A stretch of 64,000 nucleotides of DNA, from positions 1 to 64,000 of IMG/VR virus record IMGVR_UViG_2773858002_000001, one strand, 5' to 3'. This document shows, in pieces, positions 1,860 through 62,358 of the stretch. The notes beneath the pieces were generated by a model. That model saw nothing but the letters and a program-made list of their open reading frames with translations. It was not told where the DNA came from and did no database searches. This DNA comes from a virus (taxonomy: Duplodnaviria; Caudoviricetes). Every line of letters begins with the position of its first letter. Position 1 is the first letter of the stretch. The position numbers and the translations under genes were made by a program.

Positions 1860-1888
1860 GGCAAAACGCTTCTGTGAAATTAATTGCA

Positions 1889-2293
1889 TTATGAAGGTAT
1901 GTATTTGAGCGACACACCCATGTTGCTCTCAACCAGACCGACAGCCGCTGCCTTCGTGCGGTTCGGGTAATCCTTTGAAGACAATCGGTAGAGTGAGCCG
2001 GCCTTCAGGTCTCCCAGCGTGATCAAGTGCTTGTGGTCGTGCGCGAGCTGACCCCACGCCTCCAGCATGGCTTTGGCCATCTGGTCATAGAGACCGTCCG
2101 ACAGAAGGGAGATGTCATGATGGTAGTACAGGTAGCTGGCCATCAGCCACCACGGGATCGCCGCATCCGGGCTGGTCTCCATGACGGAAAGGCACATGCT
2201 GTCCAAATGTTTCGGGGCCGATCTCTTCCCCCGTTCGGGGATGACCGGCTCCGGTGCCGGGGCCGCTACCTTTCGCTTGATAACGATGGCCAT
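1889..2293 (-). CDS. Stand-alone NAD-dependent DNA ligase domain Ia-like protein
   Basis: SYLYYHHDISLLSDGLYDQM matches the LigA Ia YY..D....SD..YD motif; no adenylation domain. Confidence 0.65.
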   Translation of the reverse strand: MAIVIKRKVAAPAPEPVIPERGKRSAPKHLDSMCLSVMETSPDAAIPWWLMASYLYYHHDISLLSDGLYDQMAKAMLEAWGQLAHDHKHLITLGDLKAGSLYRLSSKDYPNRTKAAAVGLVESNMGVSLKYIPS

Positions 2294-2487
2294 CAGACAA
2301 GCCCCCTGTCTTCCAGAACATCCTGCTCGGCTGTAAGAAGCCACACCCGACCGCGAACATGTTCGAGCTCACACATGGACTTTGGTATCCAGACGGCATT
2401 TTCATCGTCGCCGTCAAGGCTGACTTTGTACGCCAATTCTGTCGCGTGGTGGCGATAGACTTCAATGTCTTCGAGGTTTGATTTCAT
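2293..2487 (-). CDS. Hypothetical phage protein
   Basis: 64-aa ORF with RBS GGAG, coupled to its neighbours. Confidence 0.65.
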   Translation of the reverse strand: MKSNLEDIEVYRHHATELAYKVSLDGDDENAVWIPKSMCELEHVRGRVWLLTAEQDVLEDRGLV

Positions 2488-2786
2488 TTGTCATCTCCTG
2501 GAGCGCCAAGAAGCATCTGCTGCCGCTTTTCTTCCAATGGGATCGCGCCAGGACGATCTTCAGCGACCAGCCTCCCCATGCGGTCCCGGAAAAGCGTTCC
2601 TTCAAATGACAGATGCTCCAGCCGGACCTTCGCCTTCGTGGTTGATCCGTCGGCCATCAACTTGATGAAGCCGCCGCCAGTCTTGGCGTACAGCGTTCCG
2701 TCCCGCGTGTAGAGATCGACCTGTTTATAGACACCGTTCTCAATGATGATCGCGGCCTCGCCTTCGACATGCTTAAAGAACCCCAT
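2484..2786 (-). CDS. Hypothetical phage protein (MGFFKHVEGE...)
   Basis: ORF coupled to neighbours by overlapping start/stop. Confidence 0.65.
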   Translation of the reverse strand: MGFFKHVEGEAAIIIENGVYKQVDLYTRDGTLYAKTGGGFIKLMADGSTTKAKVRLEHLSFEGTLFRDRMGRLVAEDRPGAIPLEEKRQQMLLGAPGDDK

Positions 2787-3091
2787 CACGCCGCCTCTGT
2801 CTTTGCGCGCTGCCGCACCCATCGAGCGTTCATGCACTTGTCACTCTCACCGTGGCAGGGGAAGCCGTACAGGTGCCCGCACAACTTGCACGCGGTTGGG
2901 TCAGGCGCGCGCATCTTGCCGGGGTTTGCGAAAAGCTCGTCTGGTGACGATGCCACCGGCAGTTTAGAGAAGGGTGTTCGTTCGTTGTGCGTTGTCGCTT
3001 CCTTGTGCTTGACGCCTTCAGGTCTCGGATCGACCAGCGGTTCCGGCTCAGCTTTCTGCTGGACCCTTTTCTTCTTGATGATGATCGGCAC
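2786..3091 (-). CDS. Hypothetical protein with C-terminal Cys/His (Zn-binding) motif
   Basis: GTG start after GGAGG; CxxCxH...CH...C. Confidence 0.6.
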   Translation of the reverse strand: MPIIIKKKRVQQKAEPEPLVDPRPEGVKHKEATTHNERTPFSKLPVASSPDELFANPGKMRAPDPTACKLCGHLYGFPCHGESDKCMNARWVRQRAKTEAA

Positions 3092-3112
3092 TCGACCGCC
3101 TCCATTATGAAA

Positions 3113-3244
3113 TTAATTGCACCATTCCAACACGACGCAGTACAACCAGACGGCTTGTGGCTCACCAGCCTTGACTAGACCGACCTGAACCACAGCGGCA
3201 GCCAAAACTATTGCCAGGGCGACAAGGGCCGGGTCGGGCTTCAA
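3113..3244 (-). CDS. Small membrane peptide (43 aa, not in ORF track) ending C-N-stop in the palindrome
   Basis: TTG start overlapping the upstream stop; MKPDPALVALAIVLAAAVVQVGLVKAGEPQAVWLYCVVLEWCN. Confidence 0.45.
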   Translation of the reverse strand: MKPDPALVALAIVLAAAVVQVGLVKAGEPQAVWLYCVVLEWCN

Positions 3245-4209
3245 ATCGGGAAGTCCCCATCCGCCAGCAAGTCCCCTTCCCGGACGTCATACCCTTTGGC
3301 TTTCAGAACCTCTTTCTGCGCCTTCGTGGGAGTCTTCTTCTTGGGGTCGGTAGCGCTCGTTGCGAGTGACCACAGCATGTCACCGAGACTACCTTGTGGG
3401 CCGTAGAGACGCGCAAAGCCCATCTTTTCCAGCTGAACCGTACTGCTGCAAAGATAGTCGTATGCCACAGACTCGTGATCCCGGCTGAAGCACCCGTAAA
3501 ACGTGCCATCAGGAGCCAGCCATCCGGTGTGATAGTCCGGTCTGAGCAGGCCGTCGGCAGACCTCTGAAGCATGCCTGAGTGGGCGGCCTCCTTGACCTC
3601 CACCGGTTCAACGCCGCGCGCCGAGAAGCCTCCACCCATGTCGTTCCGATACACTCCGTCATCGTAGTGCCACCAGTCGGCCTTGCCGGTCCCATGGACG
3701 TCGATCTTGTGAAACGTCTTCATCAGACCGCGCTTGCCCCAGACACGGAAAATGCTCTCACCGTCCTCACCGACGTCCTGAGCAACTTCCTCGTAGACCC
3801 ATCCGAACAGGTCGTCCTCGGCGTTGTGTGGCTTGCTGATGTACAGAGCATCGCCTGTCTCGATATTGTGCCTCAAGCAAAGGCCGACGAAAGCGCCGTG
3901 GCAGGGTCTAGCAAACAGCATCACGTCGTTGATGCCGAAGTCATACGGCGGATGGCGCGTCTCCAACCCTGCAGCGTCTCCGACGATCATGTCATCGATC
4001 TCGCAATCAACGCGAGCGAACTTGTCGATGGCATCAACGTCGAAACCCCGCTCCCGCATCAGCCGGGTCAGATGACCTACCCCCGCGCCAATATCGACGT
4101 ACCTCCGCCACCGCCACTGATCTTCGGACAGGAACGCCCAGAAGTTGTCTGTCGGCTTGAAGAATATCATGCCCGAATTTTCCATAAACGCTTTGATCAT
4201 GGCCTGCAT
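3241..4209 (-). CDS. Class I SAM-dependent methyltransferase-like domain fused to unknown phage domains
   Basis: YVDIGAGVGHL motif I, acidic residue in VDAID; RBS CCAAGGAGGGC before ATG 4209. Confidence 0.6.
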   Translation of the reverse strand: MQAMIKAFMENSGMIFFKPTDNFWAFLSEDQWRWRRYVDIGAGVGHLTRLMRERGFDVDAIDKFARVDCEIDDMIVGDAAGLETRHPPYDFGINDVMLFARPCHGAFVGLCLRHNIETGDALYISKPHNAEDDLFGWVYEEVAQDVGEDGESIFRVWGKRGLMKTFHKIDVHGTGKADWWHYDDGVYRNDMGGGFSARGVEPVEVKEAAHSGMLQRSADGLLRPDYHTGWLAPDGTFYGCFSRDHESVAYDYLCSSTVQLEKMGFARLYGPQGSLGDMLWSLATSATDPKKKTPTKAQKEVLKAKGYDVREGDLLADGDFPI

Positions 4210-4305
4210 CTTGCCCTCCTTGGCATACGCCCGGTTTCTCCTGGACATTTGAAGGCCGTCTTCAGAACCGGGGCCGAAATCCGTCATCCAGCCTTGCGTT
4301 GGCCA

Positions 4306-61054: not shown

Positions 61055-61083
61055 CGGGCCTCACCTTGTGCAATTAATTTCAC

Positions 61084-61519
61084 TCAACGCGGACGGCCCG
61101 GTGTTCCTGGTGGCCTCTTGTTGTTGCGGGCTTTTTCCTTCTCGGCTTCGGCGCGGTCACACTGGTCGTTCGCGTCATCGAGAACGCGGAACACCTCAAT
61201 CGCCTTGTTGGACTGGTCGAGAACGCCTCCAGCCCCAGGCATGAAGCCTTTCTTGTAGAGGCCGTAGAATTTCAGCAACCAGCTCCAGTAGCCGGGGTTC
61301 TCCCGAATATGCTGCCTCGGGCAGGAGTAGAGCGTTTCCCCCTGAATGGTGACCGGAGCTTTGGCCGGTCGGACCCAATTCGAAGGCTGGTCCGGCTCGT
61401 GCGGTGGATGATCTCTCCACCTTTTGGCGGTGCATCCCCACAACTCCCGCTTGGTACAGGCAGCGCAATCACGCTCGGGCATCAACCGAACTGCGGTGAC
61501 GCCCAGCCTTAGTTTTTTT
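61084..61519 (-). CDS. Tail assembly chaperone, -1 frameshift extension (gpGT-like)
   Basis: Slippery A AAA AAC before the stop of 61509-62000; -1 frame is open into 61084-61485. Confidence 0.8.
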
Positions 61520-62000
61520 CCTCTTCCGCCGAGACCTCGCTGATCTCCTTGATGCGGGTCGCCAGTTCCTGGATCAGGCGAATGCCGAGCTTGCGCATCG
61601 TCTCATCGTCAGCCACCTCATAATCACGTCCGTTGACGACGATCTTGGTCGTGCTGAACTTGATGTGGTTGCCCTTGGCATCGAGGAAGTTCTGGAAGCC
61701 GGCGAGGCCGTGGCGAACGGCGTCGATATTCGTCTGGTTGACGCGCGTTTTGATGCCGATCTCGTCACTGCCCTCCTTACCCGAAAGCGAGGAAGCATTG
61801 TCGTAGATGTAGCCCATCAGGAAGACATCGAGCGGCTTCAGAAAGAACTTGGTTGCGCCTTTGCCAATGTTCACCTCATCCCGCGTACCTTTCGCGGGAT
61901 CGTTCTCGTCAATGAGAACCTTCGTGACCGTGCGGGCCGGGTCTTTTTCAGAAACGTGTTCGACCGTATCCGAGACGGTCATAGCGATCAGTGCCATCAA
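61509..62000 (-). CDS. Tail assembly chaperone (gpG-like)
   Basis: Between tail tube and TMP; ends EEKN at the slippery site. Confidence 0.8.
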   Translation of the reverse strand: MMALIAMTVSDTVEHVSEKDPARTVTKVLIDENDPAKGTRDEVNIGKGATKFFLKPLDVFLMGYIYDNASSLSGKEGSDEIGIKTRVNQTNIDAVRHGLAGFQNFLDAKGNHIKFSTTKIVVNGRDYEVADDETMRKLGIRLIQELATRIKEISEVSAEEEKN

Positions 62001-62069
62001 TCTGCCTCCTGGCTGCGTGGCGGTGGCTGTTCACACGAACAGTGCCGGAATGATTGGCGCACTGTGCAA

Positions 62070-62282
62070 TTAATTGCAATCGGGGCGGAATGCCGGATGG
62101 TCCGGGTTGTTCGGTGTCGGGCTCTTGTCCGCGATGAAGGGCGTTACTCTTGCGGGTGCAAAATCCTTGGCGATCTGGTGGGCATCTTTGAACGTCAACT
62201 TGGCGGCTATCACGGGACCGGTCAGGTTACCGTCCCGATCAGCCTGCTGAACGACGTAAACTTTTGTTGTGTATCCGGCCAT
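62070..62282 (-). CDS. Small hypothetical gene between tail tube and chaperone
   Basis: GGAG RBS; ends C-N-stop in palindrome 62065. Confidence 0.6.
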   Translation of the reverse strand: MAGYTTKVYVVQQADRDGNLTGPVIAAKLTFKDAHQIAKDFAPARVTPFIADKSPTPNNPDHPAFRPDCN

Positions 62283-62293
62283 CACGGGCTCCC

Positions 62294-62327
62294 AAAAAGC
62301 AAAGGGGAAGGCGTTGCCACCTTCCCC
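62294..62327 (-). terminator. Rho-independent terminator after the tail tube gene
   Basis: GGGGAAGG-N8-CCTTCCCC followed by a T-rich tract on the minus strand. Confidence 0.75.
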
Positions 62328-62358
62328 CGGTCCCACCGCTTGCAATTAATTGCATCGT

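What the first reader, a model, noticed from the sequence alone, without database searches (positions are those of the whole stretch)
1875..62354. Genome-wide array of ~40 AT-rich palindromes TG(C/A)AATTAATT(G/T)CA: candidate undescribed phage control/organisation system
Seen: 40 copies counted by eye in GC-rich DNA. 20 are perfect; 16 carry the same C>A change in one half-site only, in both orientations (9 vs 7); 4 are other variants. They span early, replication, lysis and tail modules. A 14-mer at this frequency cannot be chance. Known analogues: mycobacteriophage stoperators (many sites, but asymmetric and polar) and parS/NBS-type palindromes (symmetric, but usually few or clustered). This array fits neither. 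Inference: a dimeric protein coats the whole phage genome, acting as a global lysogeny silencer/roadblock, a chromosome organiser, or an injection/packaging aid.
Basis: partly seen in the sequence, partly recalled or inferred. Interest (0 to 1): 0.92.

Follow-up and report, generated by a model that had tools for sequence, protein, structure and literature searches.

The report
Evenly spaced phage palindrome binding sites
A 14-letter DNA palindrome is written about every 1.7 kb through this integrated phage; it is shared, with small variations, by a large group of 80-110 kb phages, and is most likely the docking site of the phage's own paired DNA-binding protein, which shuts promoters and organises the phage chromosome.

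Summary
The window holds 40 copies: 20 perfect, 16 with the one-sided C>A change (9 vs 7), and 4 others. The whole 91.8-kb record holds 52, against about 0.1 expected by chance.

- **Placement:** the sites are about 80% intergenic, more evenly spaced than chance, and more conserved than their flanks.
- **Specificity:** they are phage-specific, roughly 2,000-fold denser than in 300 bacterial genomes.
- **Spread:** the TGCAA(T/C)-NN-(A/G)TTGCA family is the top repeat in all ten complete relatives I read. These infect Rhodobacter, Rhizobium, Stenotrophomonas, Vibrio, Aeromonas and Pseudomonas. One of them, RcZahn, is virulent, so the array is not a lysogeny-only device.
- **Likely reader:** the 403-aa product of window 27547-28758 (-), PHROG 17202, no Pfam family. 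It is the only core gene with a DNA-binding fold and no assigned role. It has a ParB/KorB-like HTH domain, an RHH-like tail and an H1-like basic region, but no CTPase domain.
- **Promoter geometry:** its own promoter carries two sites. Several other promoters have a site ending 8 nt before the -35, the geometry of KorB's proximal operators.
- **Not shown:** binding and function are untested.

No paper in the library holds the motif. Two earlier follow-ups in this scan (e1-3291391, e1-5318759) reported the same family on other DNA. Closest described analogues are KorB/OB on plasmid RK2 and the 17-bp repeats of Cluster O mycobacteriophages.

The parts
1875..1888 (.). site, 1 mismatch (TGAAATTAATTGCA on +)
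   Evidence: lies directly after a stop codon, intergenic
3108..3121 (.). site, 1 mismatch
   Evidence: lies just before the RBS and GTG of the next gene
4687..4700 (.). site, 1 mismatch, in the loop of a terminator-like hairpin
   Evidence: flanked by ccgggagtg / cattcccgg, then a T-run
4996..5009 (.). site, 2 mismatches, about -57..-44 of a promoter-like element
5750..5763 (.). perfect site, intergenic
5869..5882 (.). perfect site with a weak promoter-like element 7-8 nt downstream
6727..6740 (.). site, 2 mismatches; its TGA is the stop codon of the upstream gene
9997..10010 (.). perfect site immediately before an RBS
10842..10855 (.). site, 1 mismatch, intergenic
11774..11787 (.). site, 1 mismatch, abuts a stop codon
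12427..12440 (.). site, 1 mismatch, before an RBS
13766..13779 (.). perfect site filling the whole gap between a stop codon and the next RBS
14725..14738 (.). site, 1 mismatch, 2 nt after a TAGAAT -10-like hexamer
16064..16077 (.). perfect site, abuts a stop codon
16851..16864 (.). perfect site between a stop codon and an RBS
18996..19009 (.). perfect site at about +1..+14 of the promoter whose -35 lies in site 19040
19040..19053 (.). site, 1 mismatch; its TTGCAC serves as a -35 (16 nt, then TAGAGT)
19972..19985 (.). variant site (TGCAGTTAATTGCA on +)
20621..20634 (.). degenerate site over the -35 of the paralogue's promoter (TTGATT-17-TACAAT)
21055..21068 (.). perfect site, intergenic
22564..22577 (.). 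perfect site, intergenic (only a low-GC3 spurious ORF overlaps it)
25669..25682 (.). perfect site before an RBS
26411..26424 (.). perfect site with a weak promoter-like element 7-8 nt downstream
28844..28857 (.). perfect site over the -35 and spacer (about -33..-20) of the candidate reader gene's promoter
28867..28880 (.). variant site at about -56..-43 of the same promoter
32569..32582 (.). perfect site before an RBS; the same position upstream of the homologous gene in RcZahn (54597)
34419..34432 (.). perfect site followed by a hairpin
35374..35387 (.). site, 1 mismatch, at -56..-43 of TTGACC-16-TATCCT (gp32-like SSB gene)
37565..37578 (.). site, 1 mismatch, at -56..-43 of TTGTCC-16-TAGGAT
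39513..39526 (.). site, 1 mismatch, inside the O-like initiator gene
40407..40420 (.). perfect site, intergenic
41166..41179 (.). site, 1 mismatch; its TGA is the stop codon of the AAA ATPase gene
42451..42464 (.). perfect site 1 nt before TTGTCA-18-TAGTTT
44456..44469 (.). perfect site, intergenic
48365..48378 (.). site, 1 mismatch, inside the 834-aa tail fibre-like gene
52498..52511 (.). perfect site between tail genes
56470..56483 (.). variant site at the end of the tape-measure gene
61069..61082 (.). site, 1 mismatch, just before the tape-measure RBS
62065..62078 (.). perfect site; coding status unclear
62341..62354 (.). perfect site followed at once by an intrinsic-terminator-like hairpin
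27547..28758 (-). candidate reader protein P0001, 403 aa: acidic N-terminus, AKKTAAKK H1-like region, ParB/KorB-like HTH domain, RHH-like C-terminal part
1..1659 (-). large serine recombinase at the edge of the provirus (context: this member is temperate and integrated)
   Evidence: the contig is 648 kb

Best explanation
The palindromes are operator-like docking sites for a phage-encoded dimeric DNA-binding protein. The most likely reader is the 403-aa product of window 27547-28758 (-), which belongs to PHROG 17202.

**Proposed mechanism (inferred)**
- Each monomer's ParB/KorB-type helix-turn-helix domain reads one TGCAAT half-site.
- The ribbon-helix-helix-like C-terminal part pairs two monomers.
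- The basic H1-like region gives extra non-specific DNA contacts.

**Proposed action (inferred from position only)**
- Where a site overlaps a core promoter, or ends 8-10 nt before the -35, the bound dimer lowers transcription by host sigma-70 RNA polymerase.
- The many evenly spaced sites away from promoters hold the protein along the whole chromosome, as roadblocks or as nucleation points that organise or compact it.

**What is shown and what is not**
- Shown: the sites' statistics, placement, conservation and phage specificity.
- Inferred: binding itself, the sign of regulation, and any organising role.
For: **The sites look like a dimer's DNA targets**
- 40 sites in the window against 0.12 expected; 52 in the record.
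- The one-sided half-site variant occurs 9 vs 8 in the two orientations, and it creates C.U or A.G mismatches in an RNA hairpin.

**Placement and selection**
- 43 of 55 loose sites lie in the 11% of DNA that is non-coding (p = 2e-30).
- Spacing is more even than a null that respects coding status, in all five phages tested (CV 0.40-0.68 against 0.97-1.24; P <= 0.0044).
- Against the Nitratireductor prophage, sites are 94% identical and their 30-nt flanks 73%.

**Phage-specific**
- All 12 exact sites of a 4.8-Mb MAG lie on one 96-kb phage contig, with none elsewhere.
- 300 Pseudomonadota genomes carry about 0.45 per genome.

**Family-wide**
- The motif family is the top repeat in RcZahn, TM16, DLP5, PG28, SIO-2, L338C, HJ05, BHU-1 and RcTiptonus.
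- Lineage variants occur in IMG/VR loci that carry the candidate gene: GGCAAT, TCCAAT, GGAAAT, TGACAT.

**The candidate reader**
- It is found in all 10 complete genomes. It is the only core gene with a DNA-binding fold and no assigned function.
- The AF2 model has pLDDT 91.6.
- The best structural match is the ParB DNA-binding domain on parS (6s6h_B, Z 8.1, 107 residues). Spo0J, KorB (8qa8, 1r71), P1 ParB, SopB and VirB follow.
- For the C-terminal 89 aa, the match list is dominated by RHH proteins such as MazE, NikR, AmrZ, SvtR and Arc, but Z is at most 4.5.

**Promoter geometry**
- 19040/18996 and 20621/20588 bracket two other promoters.
- A consensus site plus promoter sits upstream of the homologous gene in RcZahn and DLP5.
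- 11 of 36 PG28 sites end 8-10 nt before TTGACA-17-GATAAT-type promoters.
- KorB's proximal operators lie 4-10 bp upstream of their promoters (PMC11790492).
Against: - No binding data exist.
- Covariation between the HTH helix and the half-site is only suggestive. RcTiptonus has a very different helix (KASKGRG against HYRKATY) yet keeps TGCAAT. L055 keeps YRKA but reads TGACAT.
- The structural Z scores are in the range where helical proteins can match by chance (notes).
- Coupling to promoters is lineage-specific. It is nearly absent in DLP5 and TM16, so promoter control cannot be the whole story.
- The protein lacks the ParB CTPase domain, so KorB-style sliding cannot be assumed.
- The sign of regulation is inferred from position only. 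A site at about -50 could also activate.
Confidence: 0.55

Rival explanations
1. **Global lysogeny silencer.** This is the first reader's main idea. The binder is the prophage's immunity repressor, and the sites work like stoperators that block all lytic transcription in the lysogen.
For: - This member is an integrated prophage with a large serine recombinase at its edge.
- Every gene points the same way.
- Many sites overlap or flank sigma-70-like promoters.
Against: - RcZahn carries the array and the candidate gene, and is reported as virulent with no lysogeny genes (PMC8601537).
- The gene is core and sits in the replication/recombination module, not beside the integrase.
- The sites are symmetric, not polar as stoperators are (PMC4351075).
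- It may still be co-opted for silencing in temperate members.
Confidence: 0.15
2. **Replication or recombination sites.** The palindromes are loading, priming or recombination-initiation points used by the phage's own replication-recombination machinery. The candidate protein would be part of that machinery.
For: - The candidate gene directly follows the RecA-like, Holliday-junction resolvase, Cas4-like nuclease and RuvC-like genes, in all relatives.
- Spacing is even across the whole genome, including inside genes.
- The AT-rich core melts easily.
Against: - The fixed register to promoters and the double sites on the gene's own promoter point to transcription.
- A separate O-like/DnaD-like initiator is present.
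- No known system uses about 50 palindromic origins.
Confidence: 0.12
3. **Host-read element.** The motif is an UP element or the binding site of a conserved host factor, or itself a promoter element, with no phage-encoded reader.
For: - The AT-rich core lies at about -56..-43, where RNA polymerase alpha-CTD binds UP elements, and a T-tract follows.
- The TTGCA end can act as a -35.
- The motif is conserved across hosts of two classes.
Against: - Most sites are not at promoters; DLP5 has 23 of 38 inside genes.
- The strict GC flanks and dyad symmetry are not features of UP elements.
- Phage lineages carry different half-sites.
- The motif is about 2,000-fold rarer in bacterial genomes.
Confidence: 0.07
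4. **RNA-level signal.** A short hairpin in the polycistronic mRNA serves for processing, stability or translational control of the next gene.
For: - Many sites sit 10-26 nt before a start codon and right after the previous stop.
- All genes are on one strand.
- GUGCAAUUAAUUGCAC could form a 6-bp stem.
Against: - The common variants put C.U or A.G mismatches in the stem, in either arm equally.
- In RcZahn, the A.C-mismatch variants outnumber the G-U-compatible ones on the coding strand.
- Many sites lie inside genes in relatives.
- The position just before the RBS follows from squeezing 14 bp into minimal gene gaps.
Confidence: 0.04
5. **Partition centromere.** The sites are dispersed centromere sites for a plasmid-prophage state, as in N15 or P1.
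For: - DLP5 was recovered as a phagemid (PMC5834331, abstract; PMC7326821).
- A separate ParB_N protein is present.
Against: - This member integrates through a serine recombinase, and RcZahn is virulent.
- No ParA-type ATPase was seen among the proteins scanned.
- The ParB_N protein is poorly conserved, with no conserved HTH, and is not core.
- Fifty sites is far more than a centromere needs.
Confidence: 0.04

Closest known systems
KorB and its OB operators on IncP plasmid RK2 (PMC11790492)
   Same: - Palindromic sites of about 14-16 bp are scattered over a whole replicon.
- Some lie a few bp upstream of the -35: 4-10 bp for proximal OB, 8-10 nt here.
- Others lie far from any promoter.
   Different: - The candidate reader has no ParB_N/CTPase domain, so there is no evidence for a sliding clamp.
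- No KorA-like lock or ParA partner was found.
- It carries an RHH-like C-terminal part and an H1-like or acidic tail instead.
- Sites are about 3-fold denser (1 per 1.7 kb against 12 per 60 kb), and some are written inside genes.
- The replicon is a phage, including virulent phages.
17-bp dyad repeats of Cluster O mycobacteriophages (TGTTCGGNNNCCGAACA; PMC4351075)
   Same: - More than 30 dyad-symmetric copies are spread through a siphophage genome, intergenic and in genes.
- Most are not at promoters, and there is no meaningful orientation.
- The phages are not obviously temperate.
- The authors predicted a dimeric binder; the function is unknown.
   Different: - The sequence, host phylum and phage lineage are unrelated.
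- tblastn found no homologue of the candidate reader in mycobacteriophages.
- Here a reader can be proposed, and part of the sites show a fixed promoter register.
Stoperators of Cluster A mycobacteriophages
   Same: Dozens of repressor sites lie across a phage genome, many of them away from promoters.
   Different: - Stoperators are asymmetric and oriented with transcription, and belong to temperate phages' immunity repressors (as summarised in PMC4351075).
- The sites here are palindromes, and they occur in a virulent relative.
Noc and its NBS sites; ParB-parS; SopB-sopC/N15; VirB
   Same: ParB-fold HTH proteins read 14-16-bp palindromes. Noc has tens of dispersed sites.
   Different: - Those proteins carry the CTP-binding N-domain.
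- They act in segregation, nucleoid occlusion or anti-silencing of cellular or plasmid DNA.
- Their site sequences differ from this one.
- This comparison rests on my own knowledge plus the fold matches.

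Membership tests
ParB/KorB superfamily (candidate reader P0001) | N-terminal ParB_N CTP-binding domain (GxxR box) | tested here: not met
   Pfam finds no family in P0001, or in any of 39 homologues at E <= 1. The N-terminal 170 aa are acidic or KA-rich low-complexity sequence.
ParB/KorB superfamily (candidate reader P0001) | HTH DNA-binding domain of the ParB/KorB fold | tested here: inconclusive
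   - The AF2 model has pLDDT 91.6.
- The top VIA-align match is 6s6h_B, ParB DNA-binding domain with parS: Z 8.1, rmsd 3.8, 107 residues aligned.
- Spo0J 6.5, KorB 6.4 and 6.3, P1 ParB 5.3, SopB 5.0 and VirB 4.7 follow.
- The family clusters in the list, but Z lies in the range that helical proteins can reach by chance.
- A profile search of PDB sequences finds nothing.
ParB/KorB superfamily (candidate reader P0001) | Specific binding of a dimer to a 13-16-bp palindrome | not testable with these tools
   Inferred only, from co-occurrence in 10 of 10 genomes, sites on its own promoter, and its core-gene status.
ParB/KorB superfamily (candidate reader P0001) | ParA-type or KorA-type partner | tested here: inconclusive
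   No ParA-like family appeared among about 40 proteins scanned. The small proteins were not all scanned.
Ribbon-helix-helix domain (C-terminal 89 aa) | Beta-alpha-alpha fold that pairs into a dimer | tested here: inconclusive
   - At least 14 of the top 50 VIA matches are RHH proteins (MazE9, NikR, AmrZ, SvtR, PcfF, pCXC100 ParB, Arc, ArtA, CdbA), but Z is at most 4.5.
- The strand is not formed in the monomer model.
Stoperator system (Cluster A mycobacteriophages) | Asymmetric sites oriented with transcription | tested here: not met
   The sites are perfect palindromes. The one-sided variant occurs 9 vs 8 in the two orientations.
Stoperator system (Cluster A mycobacteriophages) | Restricted to temperate phages, read by the immunity repressor | tested here: not met
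   The array and the candidate gene are present in virulent RcZahn.
Dispersed dyad-repeat arrays of phages (Cluster O type) | Tens of dyad-symmetric copies throughout the genome, mostly not at promoters | tested here: met
   - There are 52 copies in 91.8 kb.
- About 21 of 55 loose sites lie near a promoter-like element.
- The rest lie between genes or inside them.
- The kinship is of kind, not of sequence.
UP element of sigma-70 promoters | AT-rich tract at -40 to -60 of a promoter, with no required dyad or GC flanks | tested here: not met
   Only a minority of sites precede a promoter. The TGCA flanks and the dyad are strictly kept.
RNA hairpin / processing site | Pairing kept by compensatory or wobble changes, and strand-specific | tested here: not met
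   The variants give C.U, A.G or A.C mismatches, and both arms are affected equally.

The most novel reading that the evidence does not exclude
A sequence-nucleated phage 'chromatin'. A protein that joins a ParB-type HTH, an RHH pairing module and histone-H1-like and acidic tails docks about every 2 kb on the phage chromosome. From there it compacts, bridges or condenses it, for example into a replication or transcription factory, or as a shield. This would happen without CTP-driven sliding. The system would be a conserved core function of a whole clade of 80-110 kb siphophages infecting Alpha- and Gammaproteobacteria.
Probability: 0.3. Interest if true: 0.82.

Novelty: new variant of a known kind. 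Interest (0 to 1): 0.7.

Why it matters
**Why it could be tested soon**
- The array and its candidate reader are core features of many phages that are already in culture: RcZahn, RcTiptonus, DLP3/DLP5, SIO-2, VHS1 and some 30 other Vibrio phages, L338C, TM16, HJ05 and the Pseudomonas Samunavirus BHU-1.
- The protein family has about 1,900 clusters at 50% identity.
- Neither the array nor the protein is mentioned in the papers I could search.

**What it would give if the pairing holds**
- A first function for a large orphan phage protein family.
- An experimentally easy model for how a phage marks and manages its whole chromosome with one word.
- A CTPase-less counterpart to KorB/ParB.
- A possible explanation for the long-unexplained Cluster O-type repeat arrays.

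**Practical use**
- The motif is a strong signature for finding these phages and prophages in genomes.

Tried and rejected
**Searches that found nothing**
- A megablast of 20 kb against 50,697 phage records gave no match; the phage is new at the DNA level.
- Searching the literature for the motif strings and their variants returned no relevant paper.
- The DLP3, RcZahn and Vibrio-phage papers I could read do not mention the repeat.
- The SIO-2 paper (PMC3338904) is not held, so I cannot exclude that it notes the motif.

**Protein searches on the candidate reader**
- Pfam on the candidate and on 39 homologues gave nothing.
- A PDB sequence-profile search gave nothing.
- Foldseek on the whole model gave no hit at E <= 0.001, though weak ParB rows appeared.

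**Other candidate readers, rejected**
- The ParB_N protein at record 85359-86261 is only 24-37% identical among relatives. It has no conserved HTH and is not core.
- The O-like initiator is likewise not core.

**A planned negative control that reversed**
- RcTiptonus showed no homologue in the quick search.
- It then proved to have both a homologue by profile HMM (E 7e-19) and about 50 copies of TGCAATCGATTGCA.
- I therefore have no true negative control.

**Tests that stayed inconclusive**
- Covariation of the recognition helix with the half-site is suggestive only.
- Sigma-54 promoter: by my own reading, the GC...GC spacing is 10, not 12.
- IHF, Fis, FNR/CRP boxes: I compared these from memory and there is no fit.

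**Tools and data that were unavailable**
- Scanning the host chromosome of the Nitratireductor prophage: the record is not held.
- Relatives of a virus record are not drawn.
- Expression in a lysogen: no RNA holder is listed, so no reads were laid.
- The search for related loci with the broad alignment failed, and with single proteins it found only near-identical loci.

Full report
**1. The observation**

An exact search for TGMAATTAATTKCA finds 34 sites in the window. None was seen in 100 dinucleotide-preserving shuffles. Allowing two mismatches to TGCAATTAATTGCA gives 40 sites between 1875 and 62354, against 0.12 expected.

- 20 are perfect.
- 16 carry C3>A in one half only. Nine are in one orientation and seven in the other, and two of the seven have a second change.
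- 4 are other variants.

The window is the first 64 kb of a 91.8-kb IMG/VR provirus record, and the array runs through all of it: 43 exact and 52 loose sites. The flanking base is usually G...C, so the full word is the 16-bp palindrome GTGCAATTAATTGCAC.

**2. What the DNA is**

All genes lie on the minus strand. PHROG and Pfam scans give this layout:

| Module | Genes found |
|---|---|
| Packaging | ParB_N protein, large terminase |
| Between terminase and polymerase | truncated PPDK-like kinase with two phosphatases |
| Replication, first part | family-A DNA polymerase |
| Head | portal, protease, capsid |
| Tail | tape measure, tail genes |
| Lysis | lysis genes |
| Replication and recombination | AAA ATPase, O-like initiator, DnaB, primase, gp32-like SSB, helicase, RecA-like, resolvases, Cas4-like nuclease |
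| Accessory | about 27 kb of small accessory genes |
| Edge of the record | large serine recombinase at window 1-1659 |

The protein encoded at 27547-28758 is on record on a 648-kb contig, so this is an integrated, temperate phage.

No DNA-level relative exists among 50,697 phage records. By DNA polymerase, the nearest phages are:
- Rhodobacter phage RcZahn, 63%
- Rhizobium phages RHph_TM16 and Y1_11, 55%
- Stenotrophomonas DLP5, DLP3 and Summit, 44%
- a large set of Vibrio siphophages, 44%

A prophage with 77% nucleotide identity sits in the Nitratireductor sp. OM-1 chromosome.

**3. Anatomy of the sites**

Of 55 loose sites, 43 lie in the 11% of the record that is non-coding (p = 2e-30). Real coding hits are few:
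- 39513, in the initiator gene
- 48365, in a tail fibre gene
- 70757, 80844, 86205 and 88391, all beyond the window

Many sites fill a minimal gap between genes. Six abut the previous stop codon. In three, the TGA of the variant half-site is itself the stop codon. Seventeen end 10-26 nt before the next start codon. I read this as 14 bp squeezed into the only free space, not as a translation signal.

The RNA hairpin idea fails on two counts:
- The common variants create C.U or A.G mismatches, in either arm equally (9 vs 8).
- In RcZahn, the A.C-mismatch forms outnumber the G-U-compatible ones on the coding strand.

Spacing is more even than chance, even under a null that keeps each site's coding or non-coding status. 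This holds in this phage and in four relatives: CV 0.40-0.68 against 0.97-1.24, P <= 0.0044, with the largest gaps about half of those expected.

Against the Nitratireductor prophage, the sites are 94% identical while their 30-nt flanks are 73%.

**4. Specificity to the phage**

In a 4.8-Mb MAG that holds a related 96-kb phage contig, all 12 exact TGCAATNNATTGCA lie on that contig. Three hundred Pseudomonadota genomes have about 0.45 per genome. That is roughly 0.13 per Mb, against about 280 per Mb here. The true host contig could not be scanned.

**5. Conservation**

The same family is the most frequent repeat in every relative I read in full:

| Phage | Host | Motif | Copies |
|---|---|---|---|
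| RcZahn | Rhodobacter | TGCAATYAAYTGCA | about 27 |
| TM16 | Rhizobium | TGCAACATATTGCA | 26 |
| DLP5 | Stenotrophomonas | TGCAATCAATTGCA | 38 |
| PG28 | Vibrio | TGCARTTAAYTGCA | 36 |
| SIO-2 | Vibrio | TGCAAT-NN-ATTGCA | not counted exactly |
| L338C | Rhizobium | TGCAAC-NN-GTTGCA | about 50 |
| HJ05 | Aeromonas | TTGCAACCGGTTGCAA | not counted exactly |
| BHU-1 | Pseudomonas | TGCAAGCGCTTGCA | not counted exactly |
| RcTiptonus | Rhodobacter | TGCAATCGATTGCA | about 50 |

In these relatives about half of the sites lie inside genes. Some positions are homologous: the site before window gene 32305-32556 matches RcZahn 54597 before gene 60. RcZahn is reported as virulent, with no lysogeny genes (PMC8601537). 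The array is therefore not a device of lysogeny alone.

**6. The likely reader**

A motif kept across all these phages needs either a host factor common to two bacterial classes or a core phage protein. Only about 15 genes are shared by all ten genomes. All but one are replication, recombination or structural proteins.

The exception is the 403-aa product of 27547-28758 (P0001). It belongs to PHROG 17202 ('unknown function') and has no Pfam family. Its last 233 residues are well conserved:
- 37-56% identity to the cultured relatives.
- 1,921 clusters in the 1.8-billion representative library.

The N-terminal part is acidic, with an AKKTAAKK histone-H1-like stretch, and varies between lineages.

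The AlphaFold model of the C-terminal part is confident, with pLDDT 91.6. An exhaustive structural comparison puts the ParB DNA-binding domain bound to parS first (Z 8.1, 107 residues). Spo0J, two KorB entries, P1 ParB, SopB and VirB follow. The ESM Atlas's nearest named neighbours are 'ParB HTH' and DUF3102, but these are weak. The last 89 residues give a low-scoring list dominated by ribbon-helix-helix proteins, which would explain dimer formation. These scores are moderate and I treat the fold calls as probable, not proven.

The gene sits behind a consensus site plus a promoter in this phage, in RcZahn and in DLP5. A shorter paralogue (20040-20555) has its own promoter bracketed by two degenerate sites.

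In 39 IMG/VR loci that carry a homologue, nearly all show the array. Some lineages use other half-sites: GGCAAT, TCCAAT, GGAAAT, TGACAT, TGATAT. The three lineages with altered outer bases also have altered residues in the HTH helix. There are counter-examples, though. RcTiptonus keeps TGCAAT with a very different helix, and L055 reads TGACAT with an unchanged helix. Covariation is therefore only suggestive.

The ParB_N protein next to the terminase is a poorer candidate. It is 24-37% identical among relatives, has no conserved HTH, and is not core.

**7. Relation to promoters**

About 21 of 55 sites lie near a sigma-70-like element.

*Sites spanning -56..-43.* These end exactly 8 nt before the -35, often across a T-tract.
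- In the window: 28867, 35374, 37565 and, more weakly, 4996.
- In the rest of the record: 77126, 79006 and 82185.

*Sites overlapping the core promoter or the start.*
- 19040, over a -35
- 18996, at +1..+14
- 20621
- 91009, at -3..+10

*The same register in relatives.*
- 11 of 36 PG28 sites have it, before TTGACA-17-GATAAT promoters.
- It recurs at the RcZahn and DLP5 reader genes.
- RcZahn's early promoters have it one helical turn further out.

KorB's proximal operators lie 4-10 bp upstream of their promoters and repress (PMC11790492). Strong consensus promoters with an upstream or overlapping operator argue for repression and autoregulation rather than activation. This is inference from position.

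Promoter coupling is nearly absent in DLP5 and TM16. The conserved core property is therefore the evenly spread array itself.

**8. Best explanation and rivals**

Most likely (about 0.55), the sites are docking sites of a dimer of P0001. The dimer would repress promoters where it overlaps or abuts them. Through the evenly spaced remaining sites it would stay bound along the whole chromosome, as roadblock or as organiser.

| Rival | Probability | Main point |
|---|---|---|
| Lysogeny-only silencer | 0.15 | contradicted as the core role by virulent RcZahn |
| Replication or recombination sites | 0.12 | the gene's neighbourhood and the even spacing fit; the promoter register does not |
| Host factor or UP element | 0.07 | most sites are not at promoters |
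| RNA hairpin | 0.04 | variants break the pairing |
| Partition centromere | 0.04 | no ParA partner; this member integrates |

**9. Comparison with what is known**

- *KorB/OB on RK2.* It works most like this: dispersed palindromes, proximal and distal to promoters, read by a ParB-fold HTH protein. The candidate lacks the CTPase domain that defines ParB/KorB clamps, so I do not file it as a member.
- *Cluster O mycobacteriophages.* As a phage phenomenon it is closest to their 17-bp dyad repeats. There are over 30 copies, mostly not at promoters, in phages that are not temperate, and the function is unknown (PMC4351075).
- *Stoperators.* It is not one of these, because stoperators are asymmetric and polar.

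**10. Novelty**

No paper in the library holds the motif. The genome papers on DLP3, RcZahn and several Vibrio phages do not mention it. One key paper, on SIO-2, could not be read.

After my own analysis I found that this scan had already met the same family on other DNA. Those are e1-3291391 and e1-5318759, with the same reading and the same closest analogue. They are AI notes, not independent evidence.

I rate it a new variant of a known kind. It is of good interest because it is widespread, sits in cultured phages, and can be tested directly.

Noticed in passing
window 1-1659 (-): A large serine recombinase (Resolvase, Recombinase and Zn_ribbon_recom domains) is the last gene at the edge of the provirus record. 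All of the roughly 130 genes, including this one, are on one strand. No repressor-type gene was identified next to it.
   Followed up: partly
window 1840-1874 and 3060-3107 (-), downstream of sites 1875 and 3108: Two neighbouring small genes begin with nearly the same peptide (MPIVIKKKKR and VPIIIKKKR) right after a palindrome.
   Followed up: no
window 6727, 41166; record 77126: In three sites, the TGA of the variant half-site TGAAAT is the stop codon of the upstream gene. Part of the C>A 'variant' may therefore be kept because it doubles as a stop codon.
   Followed up: partly
window 4678-4725 (-): Site 4687 forms the loop and upper stem of a longer hairpin (ccgggagtg ... cattcccgg) followed by a T-run. 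An intrinsic-terminator-like structure is built around the palindrome. Sites 62341 and record 66749 are followed at once by terminator-like hairpins.
   Followed up: no
record 76262-82116 (beyond the window; L005/L006): A truncated PPDK-like kinase (phrog_18609), two PTP-type phosphatases and two unknown proteins form a module between the terminase and the DNA polymerase. Homologues of these genes are found in RcZahn, TM16, DLP5 and PG28. Three of its promoters carry a site at -56..-43.
   Followed up: partly
record 85359-86261 (L006:13359-14261, -): A ParB_N protein beside the large terminase matches chromosomal ParB, Noc and KorB over about 160 residues (E 2e-13). Its C-terminal half is not conserved among relatives, and its role is unknown.
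   Followed up: partly
window 7824-9236 (-): A 470-aa protein with weak WD40/beta-propeller matches lies in the accessory region, which is unusual for a phage. All the Pfam matches fall far below their family cut-offs, except a WD40 match with no significant individual repeat.
   Followed up: no
Rhizobium phage L338C (KF614509; loci L073-L078): Besides its TGCAAC-NN-GTTGCA array, this genome has a second, asymmetric repeat, ATCCTTTGTCAA, about 20 times. I have no explanation for it.
   Followed up: no
P0001 residues 1-15 and 45-90 (window 28489-28758, -): The variable N-terminal region keeps two short conserved motifs in the alphaproteobacterial members. One is an N-terminal ASLxLLKGGKK peptide. 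The other is a DVDxM..ELDxLV.E.GI..P..W...KRxWLKEQF stretch that looks like a HeH/SAP-type motif; I judged this by eye only.
   Followed up: no
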